64,000 nt of DNA from Parcubacteria group bacterium M6-OD1-1. Lineage in GTDB: Bacteria > Patescibacteriota > Minisyncoccia > GWC2-36-17 > M10-OD1-4. This document shows, piece by piece, positions 1,494-19,455 of this stretch; position 1 is the first letter of the stretch; the number at the start of each line of letters is the position of its first letter. The notes beneath the pieces are model-generated. The model saw only the letters and a program-made list of their open reading frames with translations, ran no database searches and was not told where the DNA came from. The translations under genes were made by a program, and so were the position numbers. Location of the stretch: contig LSNK01000002.1 in NCBI GenBank assembly GCA_003056085.1, forward strand, positions 110,575 through 174,574, given 5' to 3'.

Positions 1494-2219
1494 TTAAAGA
1501 GTTATGCTTTTAATTTCTCCTAATTTTAAATTACCTAATTTAACATCTCCCATCCTTACACGAACCAACCTCACTACTTTATTATTACATGCTTCCGCCA
1601 TACGACGAAGCTGTCTGTTGTATCCTTGGTGGATAATTACACTTAGTCTGTTCCCGTCTATTTTTTCCACTTTATCCGCTTTGGCAATCCCCTCCTGCAG
1701 TTTGATGCCTCTTTTAAATTTTGTTATAAGTCTTTCATCAATCGGATCTTTAAAAGACAATAAATATTCCTTTTCTTTTTGAAATTTTGGATGAGTCAGT
1801 TCAAATATTTTCTGACCGGCATTTGTTAAAATTAACAGACCCTCACTGTTAAAATCCAACCTTCCCACCGGCTTTAAGTCTTGAAGACTTTTTGGCAAAA
1901 GGTTCATAACGGTTTTTCTTCCTTTTGGGTCTTTTCTTACCGTCAAATATCCTTTTGGTTTGTTTAAAATAATAGTTGTTTCTTTTTCCGGGAGCTTAAC
2001 TGTTTTTTTGTTATGTTTGACAATGTCTTTTTTTAGATCCACAACTTGCCAAAAATCAGCAACTTTGCCGTTTATAGTTACGTTTCCTTTTTTAACCTCA
2101 CTTTCAGCTTCGCGTCTGGAAATCCCGGTCGCTTGTGATAAATATTGATTTATTTTCATTTTATTATTAGTAAAATATTTGATTAATTTTATTTTACTAC
2201 TTTGATGCCGCTTAAACAA
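1494..2219 (-). CDS. pseudouridine synthase, RsuA/RluB family with N-terminal S4 domain; true start probably the second Met (MKINQYL...)
   Basis: S4 motif ISRREAESEVKKGNVTINGKVA and catalytic GRLDFNSEGLLILTNAG motif. Confidence 0.75.
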   Translation of the reverse strand: MFKRHQSSKIKLIKYFTNNKMKINQYLSQATGISRREAESEVKKGNVTINGKVADFWQVVDLKKDIVKHNKKTVKLPEKETTIILNKPKGYLTVRKDPKGRKTVMNLLPKSLQDLKPVGRLDFNSEGLLILTNAGQKIFELTHPKFQKEKEYLLSFKDPIDERLITKFKRGIKLQEGIAKADKVEKIDGNRLSVIIHQGYNRQLRRMAEACNNKVVRLVRVRMGDVKLGNLKLGEIKSITL

Positions 2220-2254
2220 CCAAAATCAGAAACCCCTCGCATTTACGAGGAGTT

Positions 2255-2647
2255 TCAAAAGTTTTTATTATTTTTATAAAAAAAGTCATTGCAAAGATTT
2301 GGATATTTGCATCTTTCAAAGTGATTTTTCAACCAAAAACTTTCACTATTTTTTTGCACTTGTACAGCAATTATATTTTCTAATTTGCTATCATACGCCC
2401 ATAACAAAAGGGACTGCAGCGCTCTACTGCCAAAACCGTGTCTTGTTTTATCTTCCGGCAGCGTAGTCATATTTGTTATAACCAAATCTGCGCCACTGTA
2501 GTCTTCAAAAACAATTCTTATGGTTGTTGTTGCTTCTTCAAAGGGAAATTTTATTATATATGCTTTTTTGTCAAATCTATCACGCTTTATATAAGCGCCG
2601 TATTGTTTCAAATACATTAACTCATCCATTTCTCTTTTCTCCTGCAA
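2255..2647 (-). CDS. GNAT family N-acetyltransferase
   Basis: 130 aa; acetyl-CoA binding-like motif HGFGSRALQSLLLWA. Confidence 0.5.
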   Translation of the reverse strand: MQEKREMDELMYLKQYGAYIKRDRFDKKAYIIKFPFEEATTTIRIVFEDYSGADLVITNMTTLPEDKTRHGFGSRALQSLLLWAYDSKLENIIAVQVQKNSESFWLKNHFERCKYPNLCNDFFYKNNKNF

Positions 2648-2770
2648 TGTGAGCTTAACTAAACATATTATGAATAATAAATTTAGTCAAGATTTTATTT
2701 TAAGATTTCAACACTCTTAGAACATGCTCTTTTCTTAAAACATTTTAAAACAATCTACTCCGCTTCAAAT

Positions 2771-2791
2771 TGGCTACCAGACCTAGATTTC
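2771..2791 (-). repeat. degenerate fragment of the tRNA-Gln 3' end (acceptor 3' strand plus CCA-like)
   Basis: Minus strand reads GAAATCTAGGTCTGGTAGCCA; compare the tRNA 3' end GAATCCAGGTCTGGCAGC. Confidence 0.4.
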
Positions 2792-2827
2792 TCATCCTTC
2801 ACTTGCATACTAAATTTTACGAGCAAC

Positions 2828-2849
2828 GCTGCCAGACCTGGATTCGAAC
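2828..2849 (-). repeat. exact copy of the tRNA-Gln 3' 22 nt (T loop, T-stem 3' strand, acceptor 3' strand)
   Basis: Identical to 2971-2992: minus strand GTTCGAATCCAGGTCTGGCAGC. Confidence 0.7.
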
Positions 2850-2907
2850 ACTCCGGAGTACTATCGTTTTGTTAGCCAATCGCTTCGTTCTTGGACAAAA
2901 CGTGAGC

Positions 2908-2922
2908 CAAGATAACAGCTTT
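2908..2922 (-). repeat. exact copy of a tRNA-Gln internal segment (anticodon loop 3' side, anticodon stem 3' strand, variable region, start of T stem)
   Basis: Minus strand AAAGCTGTTATCTTG, identical to the matching part of the intact gene. Confidence 0.6.
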
Positions 2923-2970
2923 CCCCGTTTAAATGGGAAAAGTCAACTAAATACTAACTCCTATTCAAAG

Positions 2971-3041
2971 CTGCCAGACCTGGATTCGAACCAAGATAAC
3001 AGCTTTCAGAGAGCTGTGTCCTACCATTAGACGATCTGGCA
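2971..3041 (-). tRNA. tRNA-Gln (anticodon CUG), 71 nt, CCA not encoded
   Basis: Cloverleaf folded by hand from the minus strand. Acceptor stem TGCCAGA/TCTGGCA. Three-bp D stem GTC/GAC with loop TAATGGTAG. Anticodon stem CAGCT/AGCTG with loop CTCTGAA, giving anticodon CTG. T arm CTTGG-TTCGAAT-CCAGG. Discriminator G. Confidence 0.8.
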
Positions 3042-3100
3042 GCTTTGAATATGAGTATTATGAAAACAACGATTTTTCCCATTTAAGCGGGACAGACGGC

Positions 3101-3133
3101 GAGCTGTGTCCTACCATTAGACGATCTGGCAGC
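3101..3133 (-). repeat. exact copy of the tRNA-Gln 5' 33 nt (acceptor 5' strand, D arm, anticodon stem 5' strand)
   Basis: Minus strand GCTGCCAGATCGTCTAATGGTAGGACACAGCTC, identical to 3009-3041 of the intact gene. Confidence 0.7.
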
Positions 3134-3246
3134 GTTGCACACAAAAATTGGCAATGATTTTTTGTATTATACACAAAAATTCTTTACTTTCAAATAAATT
3201 TTTATATTCTTCTATATGAATATAAAATTTCTATATTTGGGTGTAA

Positions 3247-3275
3247 TTCAAAAAAATGAGAAATTAAGGTAATAT
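3247..3275 (+). promoter_or_regulatory. putative sigma70-like promoter for element A (TTCAAA, 17 nt spacer, TAATAT)
   Basis: The -10 box and the following ~20 nt (TAATATATGACAGAACAAAATGAAAT) are conserved upstream of copy B (TAATACATAACAGAATAAATGAAAT). Confidence 0.3.
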
Positions 3276-3412
3276 ATGACAGAACAAAATGAAATTCATA
3301 ATATTGAGTAAAGACCGAGGTAAAAGCTGTGAGAGAAATTGAGTCGTAGTAACGTTACGACGAAATGAGCGAATAGCTTTTAACGAAGGTATTTGCCAAT
3401 ATTATGGATTTC
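3270..3412 (+). ncRNA. candidate structured ncRNA, copy A of a two-copy ~140 nt element; strand uncertain, plus strand favoured
   Basis: About 90 percent identical to 10577-10718. Outer 16 bp stem GAAATTCATAATATTG/CAATATTATGGATTTC. Middle stem AAAAGCTG/TAGCTTTT. Inner hairpin GTCGTAG-TAACG-TTACGAC. G-U wobbles pair only in the plus-strand RNA. Confidence 0.45.
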
Positions 3413-3413
3413 A

Positions 3414-4331
3414 TCAAACCTTGAGATATTTCTGCATAGCAATAAGCGACCCTAAAACACCAATTCCACTGCCAACAGCAAATAATATCAACCATATTTG
3501 AAAAATATTTCCCACGAAATACTCAAATAAATTAACTCCTGAGAAAAAATTTGCTATAAGCGGTGAACTGAAAAATAACATCGGAAGAACTAAAACAATC
3601 GTTACTAAAGAAGAAACGAGACCATAAAGCAAACCTTCAACCACAAACGGACCTCTAACAAACCAGTTTGTGGCGCCGACAAGCTTCATAACTCCTATTT
3701 CCTCGCGCATTGTAAAAATCGTTATTCTTATCGTGTTAAATGCAACTAAAAATGCAATTATAACCAAAACAATACTGATACTAAAACCTACCTTTCTTAT
3801 AGACGAAATAAATGAACTTAATTTATCTATAATTTCTTTATTTTCATAATAATTTATTTTGTTCACCATATCTTTGTATTGGTCTTTTTCTAAAGTTGCA
3901 ACAATACCTTCAAACTGACTCGGGTCTTTTGCCTTTATATTTAAACTCGCCTCCAGTGGATTTTCTTGAAGCGCATCCAAAGACTGAATAATAATTTCAT
4001 TTTCACTGTGTTTTTCTCTAAACTCCAACAAAGCATCATCTTCTGAAATATAGTCTACGCTTTTAACTTCACCCAAGACTAATATATCATTTTTCATATT
4101 TAAAATATCCGCTTCTTTTGTATCTTTTGTAAAATAAACAGAAACATCCACTCTGCTCTTAAGGTCGGTAATTAAAGACTCTGTCAAAACAGAAACCATA
4201 ATAAGCCCCAATATCATAAATAAAGTTACCGACAAAACAGATACCGTAGCGGTTGACAGCCATCCGTTTCTCCAGAAATTATTAAAACCGGATTTTGTTA
4301 TTCTTTTTAAAATTGTAAAAATATTTGTCAT
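3414..4331 (-). CDS. ftsX: cell division ABC transporter permease FtsX
   Basis: 305 aa with an N-terminal transmembrane helix, a periplasmic loop and three C-terminal helices (FtsX-like permease fold); directly downstream of ftsE. Confidence 0.8.
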   Translation of the reverse strand: MTNIFTILKRITKSGFNNFWRNGWLSTATVSVLSVTLFMILGLIMVSVLTESLITDLKSRVDVSVYFTKDTKEADILNMKNDILVLGEVKSVDYISEDDALLEFREKHSENEIIIQSLDALQENPLEASLNIKAKDPSQFEGIVATLEKDQYKDMVNKINYYENKEIIDKLSSFISSIRKVGFSISIVLVIIAFLVAFNTIRITIFTMREEIGVMKLVGATNWFVRGPFVVEGLLYGLVSSLVTIVLVLPMLFFSSPLIANFFSGVNLFEYFVGNIFQIWLILFAVGSGIGVLGSLIAMQKYLKV

Positions 4332-5146: not shown

Positions 5147-6260
5147 CTATTTTTTTATTTCTGATTCTATAAATTCATCAAGGTCGCCGTCAAGCACCTT
5201 GTCAACTTGTGAAGTCTCTGTATTTGTCCTATGATCTTTTACTAATTTGTAAGGATGCAGAACATAAGACCTTATTTGACTTCCCCATTCTATTTCAACT
5301 TTTTTTCCTTTAAGTTCTGAAATTTCTTTTTTCTTCTGTGCTTCCACTTCCTTAATCAACTTTGAAGCTAAAAGCTTCATCGCTATTTCTTTGTTTTTCG
5401 CTTGGTTTCTTTCACTTTGGCATGCAACAACTATACCCGTCTGATTATGTTTTATCCTTACCGCTGTTTCTCTTTTGTTGACATTTTGACCTCCCGGACC
5501 GGAAGATCTAAATGTATCAATTTGAAGATCTTCGTCTTTTATATCCACATCTGAAATACTTTCAATCTCCGGCATCACTTGAACATAAGAAAAGGATGTA
5601 TGTCTTAAATTTTGCGCAGAAAACGGAGAAACTCTGACAAGCCTATGAACTCCCGTCTCTTTTTTTAAATATCCATAAGCATACTTGCCGGAAACACCAA
5701 ATGTAACATTTTTCGTGATGATTCCTGCGGTTCCCGACTCTTCGCCTGTGTGGTGGTGAAAAATAGTAATTTGCCAACCTCTTTTTTCCGCGTATTTTTG
5801 ATACATTCTCAAAAGCATAGAAGTCCAATCTTGAGCATCGGCTCCTCCCGCTCCTGAGTATATTGATATTATAGCATGATTCTTATCAAACTTTGAAGAG
5901 AAGAAAACTTTTATCTCTTCTTTTTTAAATTTTCTTTCAAATTCAGAAATTCTTTCTGATAAATCTTTTTCAAATACTCCTTTTTCCTCAAAGTCTTCCA
6001 TCGCTTCAACCTCCTCTGCATCTTTTTTTATTTTATCAAATTCATTTAAAAAATCTTCTATGGTTTTTACCTCGTCTTTTAGAGAATTGAGTTCTGCTGT
6101 TATCTTTTTTGCACGAGAAGAATCATCCCAAAAATTAGGATGCACTGTTTTTTCTTCCAACTCTTTAATTTTCTTTTCAGTTTCAACTAAGTCAAAGCCG
6201 GTCTCTCATTTCTGAGAGCCTTTTTTTCAAATCTTTAATTTTTTGTTTTATTTCATCCAT
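5147..6260 (-). CDS. prfB: peptide chain release factor 2, made by a programmed +1 frameshift that joins a 21-codon ORF0 to the 337 aa ORF
   Basis: RF2 signatures SPF and GGQ (SSGPGGQNVNK). Upstream ORF0 MDEIKQKIKDLKKRLSEMRDRL ends at CTT TGA C (minus strand, forward 6191-6197). A +1 shift continues into ...DLVETEKKIKELEEKTVHPNFW. Confidence 0.85.
6191..6197 (-). promoter_or_regulatory. prfB: prfB programmed +1 frameshift site CUU UGA C
   Basis: Canonical RF2 autoregulatory heptamer on the minus strand; the in-frame UGA is followed by C. Confidence 0.8.
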
Positions 6261-8213: not shown

Positions 8214-8308
8214 ATTTTTTTTGAAATAATTAATAAAAAATCAAAACAATCCTTCCCCAACTTCGGCAAATGGCGCGAAAAATAAATTATTTTATTTCAC
8301 CCCGTTAG

Positions 8309-8381
8309 AGCCGACTCGGAGAGTTGAACTCCGGACCTATCCATTACGAGTGGATTGCTCTACCAACTGAGCTAAGTCGGC
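8309..8381 (-). tRNA. tRNA-Thr (anticodon CGU), 73 nt
   Basis: Minus-strand cloverleaf. Acceptor stem GCCGACT/AGTCGGC. D stem GCTC/GAGC. Anticodon stem ATCCA/TGGAT with loop CTCGTAA, giving anticodon CGT. T arm CGGAG-TTCAACT-CTCCG. Discriminator T. Confidence 0.8.
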
Positions 8382-8434
8382 TCTAACAGGACAAACTAAG
8401 TTATATCAATTTGAAATTAAGCAAAAACTATATT

Positions 8435-18555: not shown

Positions 18556-18780
18556 AAAAATATCTTTAGATATAAAATTTATACATTTATAATGTGTTTT
18601 ACACCACTAATGTGGTTGACACTGTGGATAACTATATGTTATATTTACCAATAGAAGCATGCAATAATAGCTTACGAGATGCTGTGATGTTCCCTCAAAG
18701 CATTTGAGACTTAAGTTGCAGGCAACCATCTTGCAAGACGCTGCTTCTATTAAAAAAAGTGAGTTTTTTGCTCGCTTTTT

Positions 18781-19455
18781 TTATTTGTTATATTTCTTAT
18801 CCCAGTGATCTTTGAATAATTCTTTTCCATCTTTTAAAAGATTGTTCTTTAAGATATTAAAACACTCTCCTCCTAATTCTTTCCCCTCCAAATGCCATGC
18901 TAATGCTCCGACAATCCAATCTGCGATTTGTATATTTGCATCAAAAGTTGAATTAATCATTTCAATTTGAATAATAGTTCCTGCAGGAAGCTGCGGTGCA
19001 AGTCGATTTTTTAAAATACTTTTAAATTCTGATGGCTTAATTCCTTTCAAGTGCCTTTTGTCACAAAATACCCTAAATTCCAAATCATTCGTTGGAAGAT
19101 ACATTTCTAATGTCTCTCCAATAATATTAGTATAAAGACGACCACTTTCTAATTTATTTTTATTCTTATAAGTATCTGGAATATTTTTTCTTAATAAATA
19201 AGAGTAGTGTATACGAACATCCAAGTCAGAAATATATTTTAATGTTTTTAATCTTAGTTTTGAATTTATCTTAACTTCAGAAAATTTTATTTCTGGTTGA
19301 TTTCGCATCTTTCTTGGAAAACGTGTTTTATGCCATGAACGAAATCGTTTATTCGTTCTATTTTTATCACCAACAATAAAAGAACCAACAACAAAATATT
19401 CTTCGTTATTATGCTTTGTAAATTGTCCACTTTCATCTAAAAAAATACAAGCCAT
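18781..19455 (-). CDS. DUF3800 family protein
   Basis: N-terminal MACIFLDESG and C-terminal IQIADWIVGA match the DUF3800 signature (predicted RNase H-like fold). Confidence 0.5.
   Translation of the reverse strand: MACIFLDESGQFTKHNNEEYFVVGSFIVGDKNRTNKRFRSWHKTRFPRKMRNQPEIKFSEVKINSKLRLKTLKYISDLDVRIHYSYLLRKNIPDTYKNKNKLESGRLYTNIIGETLEMYLPTNDLEFRVFCDKRHLKGIKPSEFKSILKNRLAPQLPAGTIIQIEMINSTFDANIQIADWIVGALAWHLEGKELGGECFNILKNNLLKDGKELFKDHWDKKYNK

What the first reader, a model, noticed from the sequence alone, without database searches (positions are those of the whole stretch)
2771..3133. Nested and fragmented tRNA-Gln(CUG) locus: an intact tRNA flanked by ~45 nt inverted repeats sits inside the pieces of a second copy
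Read on the minus strand, the locus is laid out in this order:
- gcaac, then the first 33 nt of tRNA-Gln (3133-3101, acceptor through position 32);
- gccg TCTG;
- a left inverted repeat, cccgcttaaatgggaaaa...atactcatattcaaa;
- the complete tRNA-Gln (3041-2971);
- a right inverted repeat, tttgaataggagttagtat...ttttcccatttaaacgggg, which is the approximate reverse complement of the left one;
- AAAGCTGTTATCTTG (2922-2908), tRNA positions 37-51;
- a 57 nt hairpin-forming block with CGTTTTGT/ACAAAACG and the palindrome ACTCCGGAGT;
- GTTCGAATCCAGGTCTGGCAGC (2849-2828, tRNA 3' end), then gttgc;
- a degenerate further 3'-end copy at 2791-2771.

The outer pieces a, e and g plus the TCTG tetranucleotide reconstitute the whole tRNA. 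The flanks of the outer copy (gcaac/gttgc) and of the inner copy (ttcaaa/tttgaa) each extend the acceptor helix.

Three explanations are possible:
- an outer tRNA gene interrupted by intron-like insertions, one of which carries a second tRNA;
- scars of repeated integration and excision at a tRNA att site, although no integrase is nearby;
- a foldback duplication.

None of these is standard for bacterial tRNA genes.
Basis: seen in the sequence. Interest (0 to 1): 0.7.

Follow-up and report, generated by a model that had tools for sequence, protein, structure and literature searches.

The report
Live tRNA gene inside dead copy
In this ultra-small (CPR/Patescibacteria) bacterium an intact glutamine tRNA gene sits inside the anticodon loop of a second, broken copy of itself; the layout is real and fixed in the species, but it looks like the residue of gene duplication and insertion, not a split or intron-containing gene.

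Summary
On the minus strand, an intact tRNA-Gln(CUG) (3041-2971) lies inside a second copy. That outer copy is cut into four pieces by inserts of 4 nt, 170 nt and 58 nt. Rejoined, the pieces are 74/74 identical to the inner unit. The 170-nt insert is the inner gene plus 21-nt inverted arms (19/21; 0 of 2000 shuffles reach this score). Three independent assemblies of the same species carry the same layout, so it is not an artefact.

The host is a Patescibacteria (Azambacteria-like) chromosome. Four outgroup relatives have one plain tRNA-Gln at the same place after ftsX. All four members of the window's own clade have partial copies beside the intact gene. One of them (L012) shares the same 4-nt-plus-hairpin lesion in the anticodon loop, but in tandem rather than nested.

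No intron signature, integrase, phage attP or multi-copy element was found. One splice cannot restore the outer gene. Long leader/trailer helices flank both copies and also the window's tRNA-Thr, so they are a lineage trait.

Best reading: a duplicated gene unit, with the outer copy now a pseudogene shell that still supplies the promoter. How the nesting arose is unresolved. Interest is moderate.

The parts
3166..3193 (-). Promoter of the locus: TTGAAA, 16-nt spacer, TATAAT, with tttgtgtataat. It lies upstream of the OUTER 5' piece.
   Evidence: Best promoter-like site in 2200-3450, 11/12 matches. TTGTGTATAATAC is identical in L012 and conserved in L008 and L009 upstream of their single tRNA-Gln.
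3132..3149 (-). Outer leader: the 5' strand of the outer 18-position acceptor-helix extension.
   Evidence: Pairs with 2829-2812: 14 WC, 2 GU, 2 mismatches (I1). In strain L106, G3142 becomes A, turning a G.U into A-U.
3101..3131 (-). Outer copy, 5' piece: tRNA positions 1 to C32. The repeat unit also includes gc at 3133-3132.
   Evidence: 33/33 identical to 3043-3011.
3097..3100 (-). 4-nt insert 'gccg' ('J') between positions 32 and 33 of the outer copy.
   Evidence: Read directly from the sequence. The homologous 'gcag' sits at the same place in the L012 second copy.
3093..3096 (-). Outer copy, positions 33-36: TCTG, that is U33 plus the anticodon CUG.
   Evidence: L012 has TCTA at this place.
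2923..3092 (-). 170-nt insert in the outer anticodon loop (site 36/37, or equally 35/36). It consists of left arm, inner gene unit and right arm.
   Evidence: Removing it together with J and the 58-nt block restores a 74/74 copy. It has no Rfam intron match.
3071..3091 (-). Left inverted-repeat arm. Its first 16 nt, tcccgcttaaatggga, form the small quasi-palindrome 'h'.
   Evidence: 19/21 complementary to 2944-2924; 0 of 2000 shuffles reach this score. L012 has a single h (tcccgtcttatggga) at the same site. Two strain substitutions fall in this arm.
3042..3070 (-). Inner leader. 3070-3057 is an unpaired 14 nt carrying a degraded -10 (ttttcataat). 3056-3042 is the 5' strand of the inner 15-position stalk.
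   Evidence: ATAATACT.ATA matches the L012 promoter-leader (p about 0.03). The stalk has 14 WC pairs and 1 mismatch. The promoter scan does not flag it.
2971..3041 (-). Inner, intact tRNA-Gln(CUG): U1-A72, G73, no encoded CCA. This is the only functional-looking tRNA at the locus.
   Evidence: ARAGORN; Rfam RF00005 at 60.3 bits, E = 1.5e-10. The mature sequence is identical in relatives L007 and L008.
2945..2970 (-). Inner trailer. With G73 at 2971 it supplies the 3' strand of the inner stalk (2971-2957). It is followed by an unpaired 12 nt (2956-2945).
   Evidence: (I2). gctttgaat matches the L009 and L012 trailers.
2924..2944 (-). Right inverted-repeat arm (gacttttcccatttaaacggg).
   Evidence: (I3).
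2908..2922 (-). Outer copy, middle piece: tRNA A37 to G52 (aaagctgttatcttg).
   Evidence: 17/17 identical to the inner copy when the ambiguous flanking Gs are included.
2850..2907 (-). 58-nt insert in the outer T stem (between G52 and G53). It contains the 8-nt inverted repeat CGTTTTGT/ACAAAACG and the palindrome ACTCCGGAGT.
   Evidence: Unique in the window and in all loci held. Its fold is no better than shuffled sequence (z = -0.6).
2829..2849 (-). Outer copy, 3' piece: T loop to G73. The c at 2828 also belongs to the repeat unit.
   Evidence: 22/22 identical to 2991-2970.
2812..2829 (-). Outer trailer: the 3' strand of the outer stalk. It starts at G73, so it overlaps the previous part by one base.
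   Evidence: I1.
2773..2789 (-). Possible third, degenerate copy of the tRNA 3' end (aatctaggtctggtagc).
   Evidence: 15/17 match to both 3' ends, E = 0.08, which is marginal.

Best explanation
The locus holds two copies of one tRNA-Gln(CUG) gene unit, each made of promoter, leader, tRNA and trailer, produced by DNA-level duplication in a small Azambacteria-like (Patescibacteria) clade.

The inner copy is the working gene. The outer copy is a pseudogene shell. Its anticodon loop carries a 4-nt insert and the 170-nt block that contains the inner unit between 21-nt inverted arms. Its T stem is split by a further 58 nt.

Inferred steps:
- The shell still supplies the only good promoter, so transcription starts near 3159 and reads through the outer 5' piece.
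- The long transcript folds into nested helices: outer stalk, then arms, then inner stalk.
- Only the inner cloverleaf is matured, by the ordinary route of RNase P, 3' trimming and CCA addition. The outer pieces are discarded, not spliced.

The long leader/trailer helices are a lineage-wide property of tRNA precursors here, not a mark of this rearrangement.

Not resolved: the exact DNA event. It could be capture of a gene unit in a break at the small palindrome 'h' in the outer anticodon loop, or a multi-step tandem duplication followed by deletions.
For: Shown:
- There is one detectable tRNA, and the outer pieces tile to an identical 74-mer only after three excisions.
- There is no intron model match, and ARAGORN with intron models does not call the outer gene.
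- The strong promoter lies only upstream of the outer piece. The inner leader keeps a degraded copy of the same -10 region plus L012-like leader and trailer motifs.
- Each copy has its own complementary leader and trailer, with different sequences, so each was a complete unit.
- Outgroups L004, L007, L008 and L009 (64-70% FtsX identity) have a single plain gene at the same position.
- Every member of the window's clade (76-82%: L012, L011, L001) has partial copies next to the intact gene. L011's fragment carries L011's own derived anticodon stem, so duplication recurs independently.
- L012 has the same J+h lesion in a 5'-truncated tandem copy that cannot be a tRNA.
- The layout is fixed in three assemblies of the species.
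- The stalk is a lineage trait: it is seen at tRNA-Thr, and in L009 and L012.
Against: - The outer pieces are 74/74 identical to the inner gene. The L012 second copy has only about 2 changes in 61 nt, although neutral DNA between these lineages cannot be aligned and the J+anticodon+h segment is only about 75% identical. A plain decaying pseudogene should look worse. This needs gene conversion, recent exchange of the locus, or some constraint.
- The exact tiling and the arms sitting precisely at the insert boundaries look like one clean insertion, and I can name no established bacterial mechanism for that.
- Paralogy of the outer and inner flanks beyond the -10 box is not statistically supported (p = 0.12 and 0.29).
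- No expression data were available.
Confidence: 0.6

Rival explanations
1. The outer copy is a living split or multi-intron tRNA gene. The 4-nt, 170-nt and 58-nt inserts are removed from the RNA, giving a second tRNA-Gln, and the inner tRNA is released from the 'intron'.
For: - The pieces tile exactly and are 74/74 identical to the inner unit.
- The predicted fold brings the outer halves together.
- Patescibacteria are rich in tRNA group I introns, at sites that include 35/36 and 36/37 (PMC13011429).
- Read as a 35/36 insertion, the 5' exon ends in U and the insert ends in G.
Against: - Three excisions are needed, one of only 4 nt, and no single splice restores the loop (my reading).
- There is no group I or II signal even at E <= 10. 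Outside the tRNA, the insert is just about 96 nt of helix.
- The T stem is interrupted (no gene is called when only that insert is left).
- L012 keeps the same lesion in a copy without a 5' acceptor strand.
- The outer product would duplicate the inner one, so nothing would select for it.
Confidence: 0.04
2. The fragments are att-site scars. Integrative elements repeatedly entered and left (or decayed within) the tRNA-Gln gene, each time duplicating part of it.
For: - Partial tRNA copies beside a complete one are the classic signature of element integration (PMC9897764).
- Fragments recur at this tRNA in relatives.
- Gene content downstream of the tRNA varies between relatives. The 124-aa ORF at 2626-2255 is found in unrelated contexts elsewhere.
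- There is a possible third 3'-end remnant at 2789-2773.
Against: - No integrase or recombinase was found in the genes typed around the locus or in L106.
- No viral contig carries this tRNA's 3' end or anticodon arm, and phage and plasmid searches hit nothing but generic tRNA similarity.
- att duplications are direct repeats that overlap the intact gene and bound kilobases of cargo. Here the pieces lie on both sides, tile without overlap, and enclose only 170 nt.
- The variable ORF lies outside all the fragments.
Confidence: 0.12
3. The 170-nt block is, or was, a small mobile cassette: a tRNA-Gln unit between terminal inverted repeats. It inserted into the anticodon loop of its cognate gene and replaces the function it destroys.
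For: - The inverted arms sit exactly at the insert boundaries (19/21).
- The outer gene tiles cleanly around the block.
- L012 has a single h at the same site, which could be a footprint.
- L099 also has an intact tRNA-Gln between a 5' and a 3' fragment.
Against: - There is no target-site duplication.
- There are no other copies of the arms or of the cassette in the 64-kb window, in the 118 loci held, or in the metagenome and viral scans.
- No transposase was found.
- The inner unit's leader and trailer resemble the orthologous flanks in L012 and L009, so it looks resident, not foreign.
- In L012 the intact gene lies upstream of the lesioned copy, not inside it.
Confidence: 0.1
4. The origin is the same as in the best explanation, but the shell is kept by selection. 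The outer stalk, the pseudo-tRNA halves and the arms would then act as an rRNA-like processing stalk and promoter module for the sole tRNA-Gln(CUG).
For: - The outer pieces and the stalk are intact, and the only stalk substitution seen among strains improves pairing (G.U to A-U).
- Leader/trailer stalks are a lineage trait.
- The only good promoter is the outer one.
- The tRNA-derived parts of the second copy are better conserved than its inserts between the window and L012.
Against: - The strains differ at only 2-3 sites in all, so there is no real test of constraint.
- A stalk function does not need the D-arm and T-arm sequences to stay identical.
- Relatives manage with 14-17 bp stalks and no shell.
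- The L012 second copy lies downstream and cannot pair as a stalk.
Confidence: 0.1

Closest known systems
Partial tRNA genes left by integration of mobile elements (attL/attR duplications; reviewed with examples in van der Gulik et al. 2023, PMC9897764)
   Same: A complete tRNA gene accompanied by partial copies of itself. The fragments recur at the same tRNA in related genomes, and gene content next to the tRNA varies.
   Different: - Known cases have one partial and one complete copy at opposite ends of a 9-23 kb element that carries an integrase.
- Here there is no integrase or cargo between the copies.
- The pieces lie on both sides of the intact gene, within 100 nt of it, and tile exactly into one gene.
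- Each piece boundary carries an unrelated insert.
Group I introns in Patescibacteria tRNA anticodon loops (Nakagawa et al. 2026, PMC13011429)
   Same: Same phylum. The insert is in the anticodon loop, at a site (35/36 or 36/37) that those introns use. Standard annotation tools miss the interrupted gene.
   Different: - There is no group I core (no Rfam match).
- Apart from a complete tRNA, the insert is a plain helix.
- Two further inserts (4 nt in the loop, 58 nt in the T stem) would remain.
- tRNA-Gln is not mentioned anywhere in that paper's main text.
Archaeal and algal disrupted tRNA genes: multiple-intron, split and circularly permuted tRNAs processed at bulge-helix-bulge motifs (review PMC3978253; details from my own knowledge)
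   Same: The tRNA information is dispersed in pieces that pair through flanking complementary sequences. Inserts sit at non-canonical positions, including the T arm.
   Different: - Those systems need the archaeal/eukaryal splicing endonuclease and BHB motifs at each junction.
- This is a bacterium, and the junctions are not in BHB geometry in the predicted fold.
- An intact copy of the same tRNA makes the outer gene redundant.
Leader/trailer processing stalks of bacterial rRNA operons, cleaved by RNase III (my own knowledge)
   Same: Long helices formed by sequences flanking a structural RNA. Here they span 15-18 positions beyond the acceptor stem, at both tRNA-Gln copies and at tRNA-Thr.
   Different: They are known for 16S and 23S rRNA, not as a general feature of tRNA genes. 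Cleavage here is untested.

Membership tests
Group I intron in a tRNA gene | Conserved catalytic core (P3-P9) detectable with covariance models (RF00028 and relatives) | tested here: not met
   An Rfam scan of 2650-3300 at E <= 10 returned only the tRNA and generic long-hairpin hits far below their thresholds. Caveat: PMC13011429 notes that some Patescibacteria introns at 36/37 escape RF00028.
Group I intron in a tRNA gene | The 5' exon ends in U, the intron ends in G, and removing one insert restores the mature tRNA | tested here: not met
   The U/G rule can be satisfied if the insert is placed at 35/36. But removing the 170 nt alone leaves gccg in the loop and 58 nt in the T stem. ARAGORN calls the outer gene only when all inserts are removed, or when J alone remains.
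Group I intron in a tRNA gene | An insert large enough to hold a ribozyme (about 200 nt or more of intron sequence) | tested here: not met
   The insert is 170 nt. 74 nt of it are the inner gene unit and most of the rest is paired arm or stalk.
Archaeal-type BHB intron or split tRNA | A bulge-helix-bulge motif at each exon-intron junction | tested here: not met
   In the predicted fold there are about 10 unpaired nt on the 5' side and 3 nt on the 3' side between the anticodon stem and the arm helix. There is no 3-4-3 BHB (my reading). A 4-nt 'intron' is below any known size.
Archaeal-type BHB intron or split tRNA | Presence of a tRNA splicing endonuclease (EndA) and a ligase | not testable with these tools
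   Only 64 kb of the genome is available. None of the genes typed is such an enzyme.
att-site duplication by an integrative element | An integrase or recombinase gene adjacent to the tRNA | tested here: not met
   The genes typed from 266 to 20464 are housekeeping or have no Pfam match, and none is an integrase, transposase or recombinase. In L106 the far side shows rluB, PCC, PH and dus genes.
att-site duplication by an integrative element | A direct repeat of the tRNA 3' part bounding a block of foreign DNA | tested here: inconclusive
   3'-part copies exist at 2922-2828 and possibly 2789-2773, but they bound only 45-100 nt. The variable ORF (2626-2255) lies beyond them.
att-site duplication by an integrative element | A matching attP on a phage or plasmid | tested here: not met
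   There were no exact matches to the tRNA 3' end or anticodon arm in IMG/VR. In INPHARED only generic tRNA similarity was found, and nothing in PLSDB.
MITE or other TIR transposon | Terminal inverted repeats at the insert boundaries | tested here: met
   The arms match 19/21 at 3091-3071 and 2944-2924, within 1-2 nt of the insert ends.
MITE or other TIR transposon | A target-site duplication | tested here: not met
   The flanks are ...gccgtctg | insert | aaagctg..., with no direct repeat.
MITE or other TIR transposon | Multiple copies in the genome or in related genomes | tested here: not met
   - The arms occur only at this locus in the 64-kb window.
- BLAST of the inserts against all loci held gives only chance-level hits.
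- The junction pattern in metagenomes recovers only the same species.
- The rest of the genome could not be searched.
Canonical bacterial tRNA-Gln gene (the inner copy) | A cloverleaf scoring above threshold, U1-A72, G73, and anticodon CUG | tested here: met
   ARAGORN and Rfam (60.3 bits against a threshold of 29). The sequence is identical to the single-copy genes of L007 and L008.

The most novel reading that the evidence does not exclude
The locus may be one instance of an undescribed process, widespread in Patescibacteria, that acts on tRNA genes.
- The gene is broken at one of its loops.
- The break is filled with palindromic or hairpin DNA and a fresh, complete gene unit, either by self-templated repair or from a hairpin-flanked tRNA cassette.
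- The old promoter-bearing copy survives as a shell. It is retained because it now drives the new copy and forms part of its processing stalk.

Support beyond this window:
- L012 has the same lesion, in tandem.
- L099 has an intact tRNA-Gln between a 5' and a 3' fragment.
- L100 and L102 have promoter-proximal 5' fragments carrying hairpins.
- The L102 tRNA-Thr genes have tandem 5' fragments, and copies at both genes carry the same perfect 16-nt palindrome.
Probability: 0.12. Interest if true: 0.7.

Novelty: new variant of a known kind. Interest (0 to 1): 0.4.

Why it matters
The practical points are these:
- tRNA finders see only the inner gene.
- The repeats break short-k assemblies exactly at this locus.
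- Anyone surveying 'interrupted' tRNA genes in CPR genomes for introns needs to tell such shells apart from true intron-bearing genes.

The biological points are these:
- The locus shows that in a genome of under 1 Mb a dead gene copy can persist, sequence-perfect, around its live twin.
- The sole tRNA-Gln(CUG) seen here is probably made from a roughly 340-nt nested precursor driven by the dead copy's promoter.
- If fragment-plus-palindrome structures at tRNA genes turn out to be common in Patescibacteria, they would point to a characteristic break-repair or recombination process in a phylum whose DNA metabolism is almost unstudied.
- The long leader/trailer helices at every tRNA gene examined would be a separate lead on tRNA maturation in these organisms.

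Tried and rejected
- **Intron models.** Rfam at gathering and at E <= 10 gave nothing. ARAGORN -i on the native and edited loci never called the outer gene while the 170-nt or the 58-nt insert was present. My first run used a boundary that was off by one, which I then corrected.
- **Multi-copy element.** The arms and the 58-nt block are unique in the window. BLAST of all insert parts against the loci held gave only chance-level hits.
- **Junction pattern ACAGCTCGCNGTCTNTCCC.** Of 83 metagenome hits, 82 were chance and one was the same species. The 3 viral hits were all chance.
- **attP search.** Exact tRNA segments gave zero hits in IMG/VR. The phage and plasmid collections gave only generic tRNA similarity, or nothing.
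- **Integrase search.** None was found.
- **Tandem-triplet model** (a 5' duplication plus a 3' duplication sharing a breakpoint). It predicts paralogous outer and inner flanks, and a degenerate 3' part after h. None of these was significant (p = 0.12, 0.29 and 0.76).
- **58-nt block as a derivative of the tRNA or as a stable hairpin.** Not supported. Its similarity to the reverse complement of the downstream remnant is marginal (p about 0.03).
- **Homologues of the downstream ORF as a route to intermediate relatives.** They sit in unrelated contexts.
- **Viral contig L118.** It matches one arm and a 14-mer of the 58-nt block, 40 nt apart, but both lie inside an amidoligase-like coding sequence. 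I judged this a probable coincidence.
- **Assembly artefact.** Rejected, because three independent assemblies agree.
Full report
**1. What is there**

Read on the minus strand, the locus runs in this order:
- a strong promoter, TTGAAA-16-TATAAT at 3193-3166, the best site in the region;
- a leader;
- the first 31 nt of tRNA-Gln (3131-3101);
- gccg;
- TCTG;
- a 170-nt block (3092-2923);
- AAAGCTGTTATCTTG (2922-2908);
- a 58-nt block (2907-2850);
- the tRNA 3' end (2849-2829);
- a trailer.

Inside the 170-nt block is a complete tRNA-Gln(CUG) at 3041-2971. It has U1-A72 and G73 and no encoded CCA. It is the only tRNA that ARAGORN and Rfam report here.

The repeats are far beyond chance: 33/33, 17/17 and 22/22 nt, with self-BLAST E-values of 4e-15, 3e-5 and 9e-9. 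Deleting the three inserts rebuilds a 74-mer identical to the inner unit.

The block's ends are inverted arms that match 19/21. None of 2000 shuffles reached that score, and reading the arms as direct repeats is not significant. The first 16 nt of each arm form a small quasi-palindrome, which I call 'h'.

The transcript is predicted to fold as nested helices with z = -7.6.

- The T-arm block is 58 nt, not 57, and is not unusually stable (z = -0.6).
- The repeat unit begins 2 nt before the real tRNA 5' end.
- The inverted repeat is two paired blocks around an unpaired middle.
- The third 3'-end copy (2789-2773) is marginal.

**2. It is real**

Two other NCBI assemblies (L106 and L107/L093) carry the same layout with only 2-3 substitutions. 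Logan contigs from a further sample break exactly at the 33-nt repeat, as a k=31 assembler would.

**3. Context**

The neighbours are ftsE/ftsX, prfB, pepF, an rluB-like gene and other housekeeping genes. The closest named FtsX hits are Candidatus Azambacteria and other Patescibacteria. No integrase, transposase or recombinase was found among the genes typed.

**4. Relatives**

A tRNA-Gln(CUG) directly downstream of ftsX is ancestral.
- L004-6, L007, L008 and L009 (64-70% FtsX identity) have one plain gene there.
- L007 and L008 have a mature sequence identical to the window's.
- L008 and L009 share the tttgtgtataat promoter.
- L009 and L012 have long leader/trailer stalks like the inner copy.

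The window groups with L012, L011 and L001 (76-82%), and every member of that clade has extra tRNA-Gln pieces:
- L001 has a degenerate 5' half upstream.
- L011 has a fragment of positions 18-41 downstream, carrying L011's own derived anticodon stem, so this was an independent event.
- L012 has an intact gene followed, 25 nt later, by a copy that starts at about position 13. Its anticodon loop reads gcag-tcta-tcccgtcttatggga, which is clearly homologous to the window's gccg-tctg-tcccgcttaaatggga.

So the lesioned allele, which I call B(J+h), is shared by two lineages. It is arranged in tandem in one and wrapped around the live gene in the other.

Elsewhere in the phylum:
- L099 has an intact tRNA-Gln between a 5' fragment (positions 1-18) and a 3' fragment (54-72).
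- L100 and L102 have promoter-proximal 5' fragments carrying GC-rich hairpins.
- L102 has tandem 5' fragments upstream of both of its tRNA-Thr genes, and copies at both genes carry the same perfect 16-nt palindrome.

**5. Not an intron**

- No group I or II or other family matches, even at E <= 10.
- ARAGORN with intron models calls only the inner gene. Even when only the 170-nt insert is left it does not call the outer gene, and when only the 58-nt insert is left no gene is found.
- No single excision can regenerate CUCUGAA, because gccg would remain.
- The L012 copy lacks a 5' acceptor strand yet keeps the same lesion.
- Patescibacteria do carry many group I introns in anticodon loops, including at 35/36 and 36/37 (PMC13011429). 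Read as a 35/36 insertion, this insert would obey the U...G rule. However, apart from the tRNA it is only about 96 nt of helix.

**6. Not demonstrably an att scar or a transposon**

[quoted passage not shown] Here:
- there is no integrase;
- no viral contig carries this tRNA;
- the phage and plasmid collections give nothing specific;
- the pieces tile rather than overlap.

The arms look like terminal inverted repeats, but there is no target duplication and there are no other copies anywhere I could search.

One viral contig (L118) matches an arm and a 14-mer of the 58-nt block. Both lie within an amidoligase-like coding sequence, and I treat this as a probable coincidence.

**7. Two whole gene units**

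The outer copy has the intact promoter and its own 18-position leader/trailer helix (14 WC, 2 GU, 2 mismatches). The inner copy has a degraded copy of the -10 region (ttttcataat against tgtgtataat), leader and trailer motifs like those of L012 and L009, and its own 15-position helix with a different sequence.

The tRNA-Thr gene at 8381-8309 has a 14-position helix of the same kind. These stalks are therefore a lineage trait, not evidence for split-gene biology.

The inner unit has no convincing promoter of its own, so it is most likely transcribed from the outer one. This step is inferred.

**8. How the nesting arose is open**

A model of two tandem partial duplications that share a breakpoint predicts paralogous flanks, and these are not detectable. 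A single insertion of the inner unit into the palindrome h of the lesioned copy fits both the tiling and the arms. However, no established mechanism or second example supports it, and it does not by itself explain the tandem order in L012.

A further puzzle is the conservation of the tRNA-derived parts of the second copy. They match 74/74 in the window and about 59/61 in L012, while the inserts are only about 75% identical and neutral DNA between the lineages cannot be aligned. Gene conversion from the live copy, recent exchange of the locus, or constraint on the shell could each explain this. I could not separate them.

**9. Verdict**

This is a real and reproducible nested pseudogene/gene pair, produced by DNA rearrangement at a duplication-prone tRNA-Gln locus in a CPR lineage. 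It is not a split or intron-bearing gene.

It is a new variant of the known phenomenon of tRNA gene fragments. It is of moderate interest, mainly for the recurrence of fragment-plus-palindrome structures and the long precursor stalks at tRNA genes in Patescibacteria.

Noticed in passing
window 8295-8395 (minus strand): The tRNA-Thr(CGU) gene (8381-8309) also has a complementary leader and trailer: 14 positions beyond the acceptor stem, 10 WC and 4 GU. It has no encoded CCA either. Both tRNA genes in the window, and the tRNA-Gln genes of L009 and L012, therefore have long acceptor-helix extensions. This may be a lineage-wide precursor 'processing stalk'.
   Followed up: partly
L102 230-650: Upstream of both tRNA-Thr genes lie tandem units made of leader, tRNA positions 1-12, an insert, and positions 16-22. 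Upstream of Thr(GGU) and in one of the two Thr(CGU) units the insert is the same perfect 16-nt palindrome (tccgccagctggcgga). In the other Thr(CGU) unit it is 'gtc'. This is the same theme as the palindrome-bearing second copy in the window.
   Followed up: partly
L099 100-460; L100 1230-1445; L102 7070-7260: In other Patescibacteria the tRNA-Gln promoter (tattctgcaat) sits upstream of a 5' fragment of the gene that carries GC-rich hairpins (acgcttg..caagcttcg). A repeated leader and the intact gene follow. L099 also has a 3' fragment (positions 54-72) about 150 nt downstream, so it too is 'nested', although its outer copy is incomplete.
   Followed up: partly
window about 2702 (L109-L112 start here): Four independent assemblies have contigs that begin at exactly the same base, 74 nt upstream of the ORF at 2626-2255. 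No repeat of 31 nt or more explains this within the window. It may mark strain-level structural variation just downstream of the tRNA locus.
   Followed up: no
window 2255-2626 (minus strand): This 124-aa ORF has no Pfam family and lies between the tRNA locus and the rluB-like gene. It is absent from that position in L004. Its homologues (55-63% identity) sit in unrelated contexts in other CPR genomes. It is a variable gene at a tRNA-adjacent gain/loss spot.
   Followed up: partly
L118 10999-11073: A viral contig matches one inverted-repeat arm (21/23) and, 40 nt further on, an exact 14-mer of the 58-nt T-arm insert. Both lie inside an amidoligase-like ORF next to GATase and GGACT genes. This is probably coincidence, though capture of phage-derived filler DNA cannot be excluded.
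   Followed up: yes
window 18653-18748 (+) and 18781-19455 (-): A DUF3800-V RNA (Rfam RF02964, 75.6 bits) lies next to a DUF3800 protein gene on the opposite strand. This is the known association for that RNA motif.
   Followed up: no
L008 5940-6140; L011 2790-2900; L012 1570-1650: A GC-rich, structured-looking block lies between the ftsX stop and the tRNA-Gln promoter in three relatives with AT-rich genomes. It is absent from the window. No Rfam family passed threshold in L011 or L012.
   Followed up: no
window 5147-6240 (minus strand): The RF2 (prfB) ORF starts at a TTG and is 337 aa long. Gene calls for the relatives' RF2 range from 307 to 383 aa. This is consistent with the well-known programmed +1 frameshift in prfB, but I did not check it.
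   Followed up: no
window 2770-3030 (+): An 86-aa ORF on the plus strand runs antisense through the tRNA pieces. It is almost certainly spurious.
   Followed up: no
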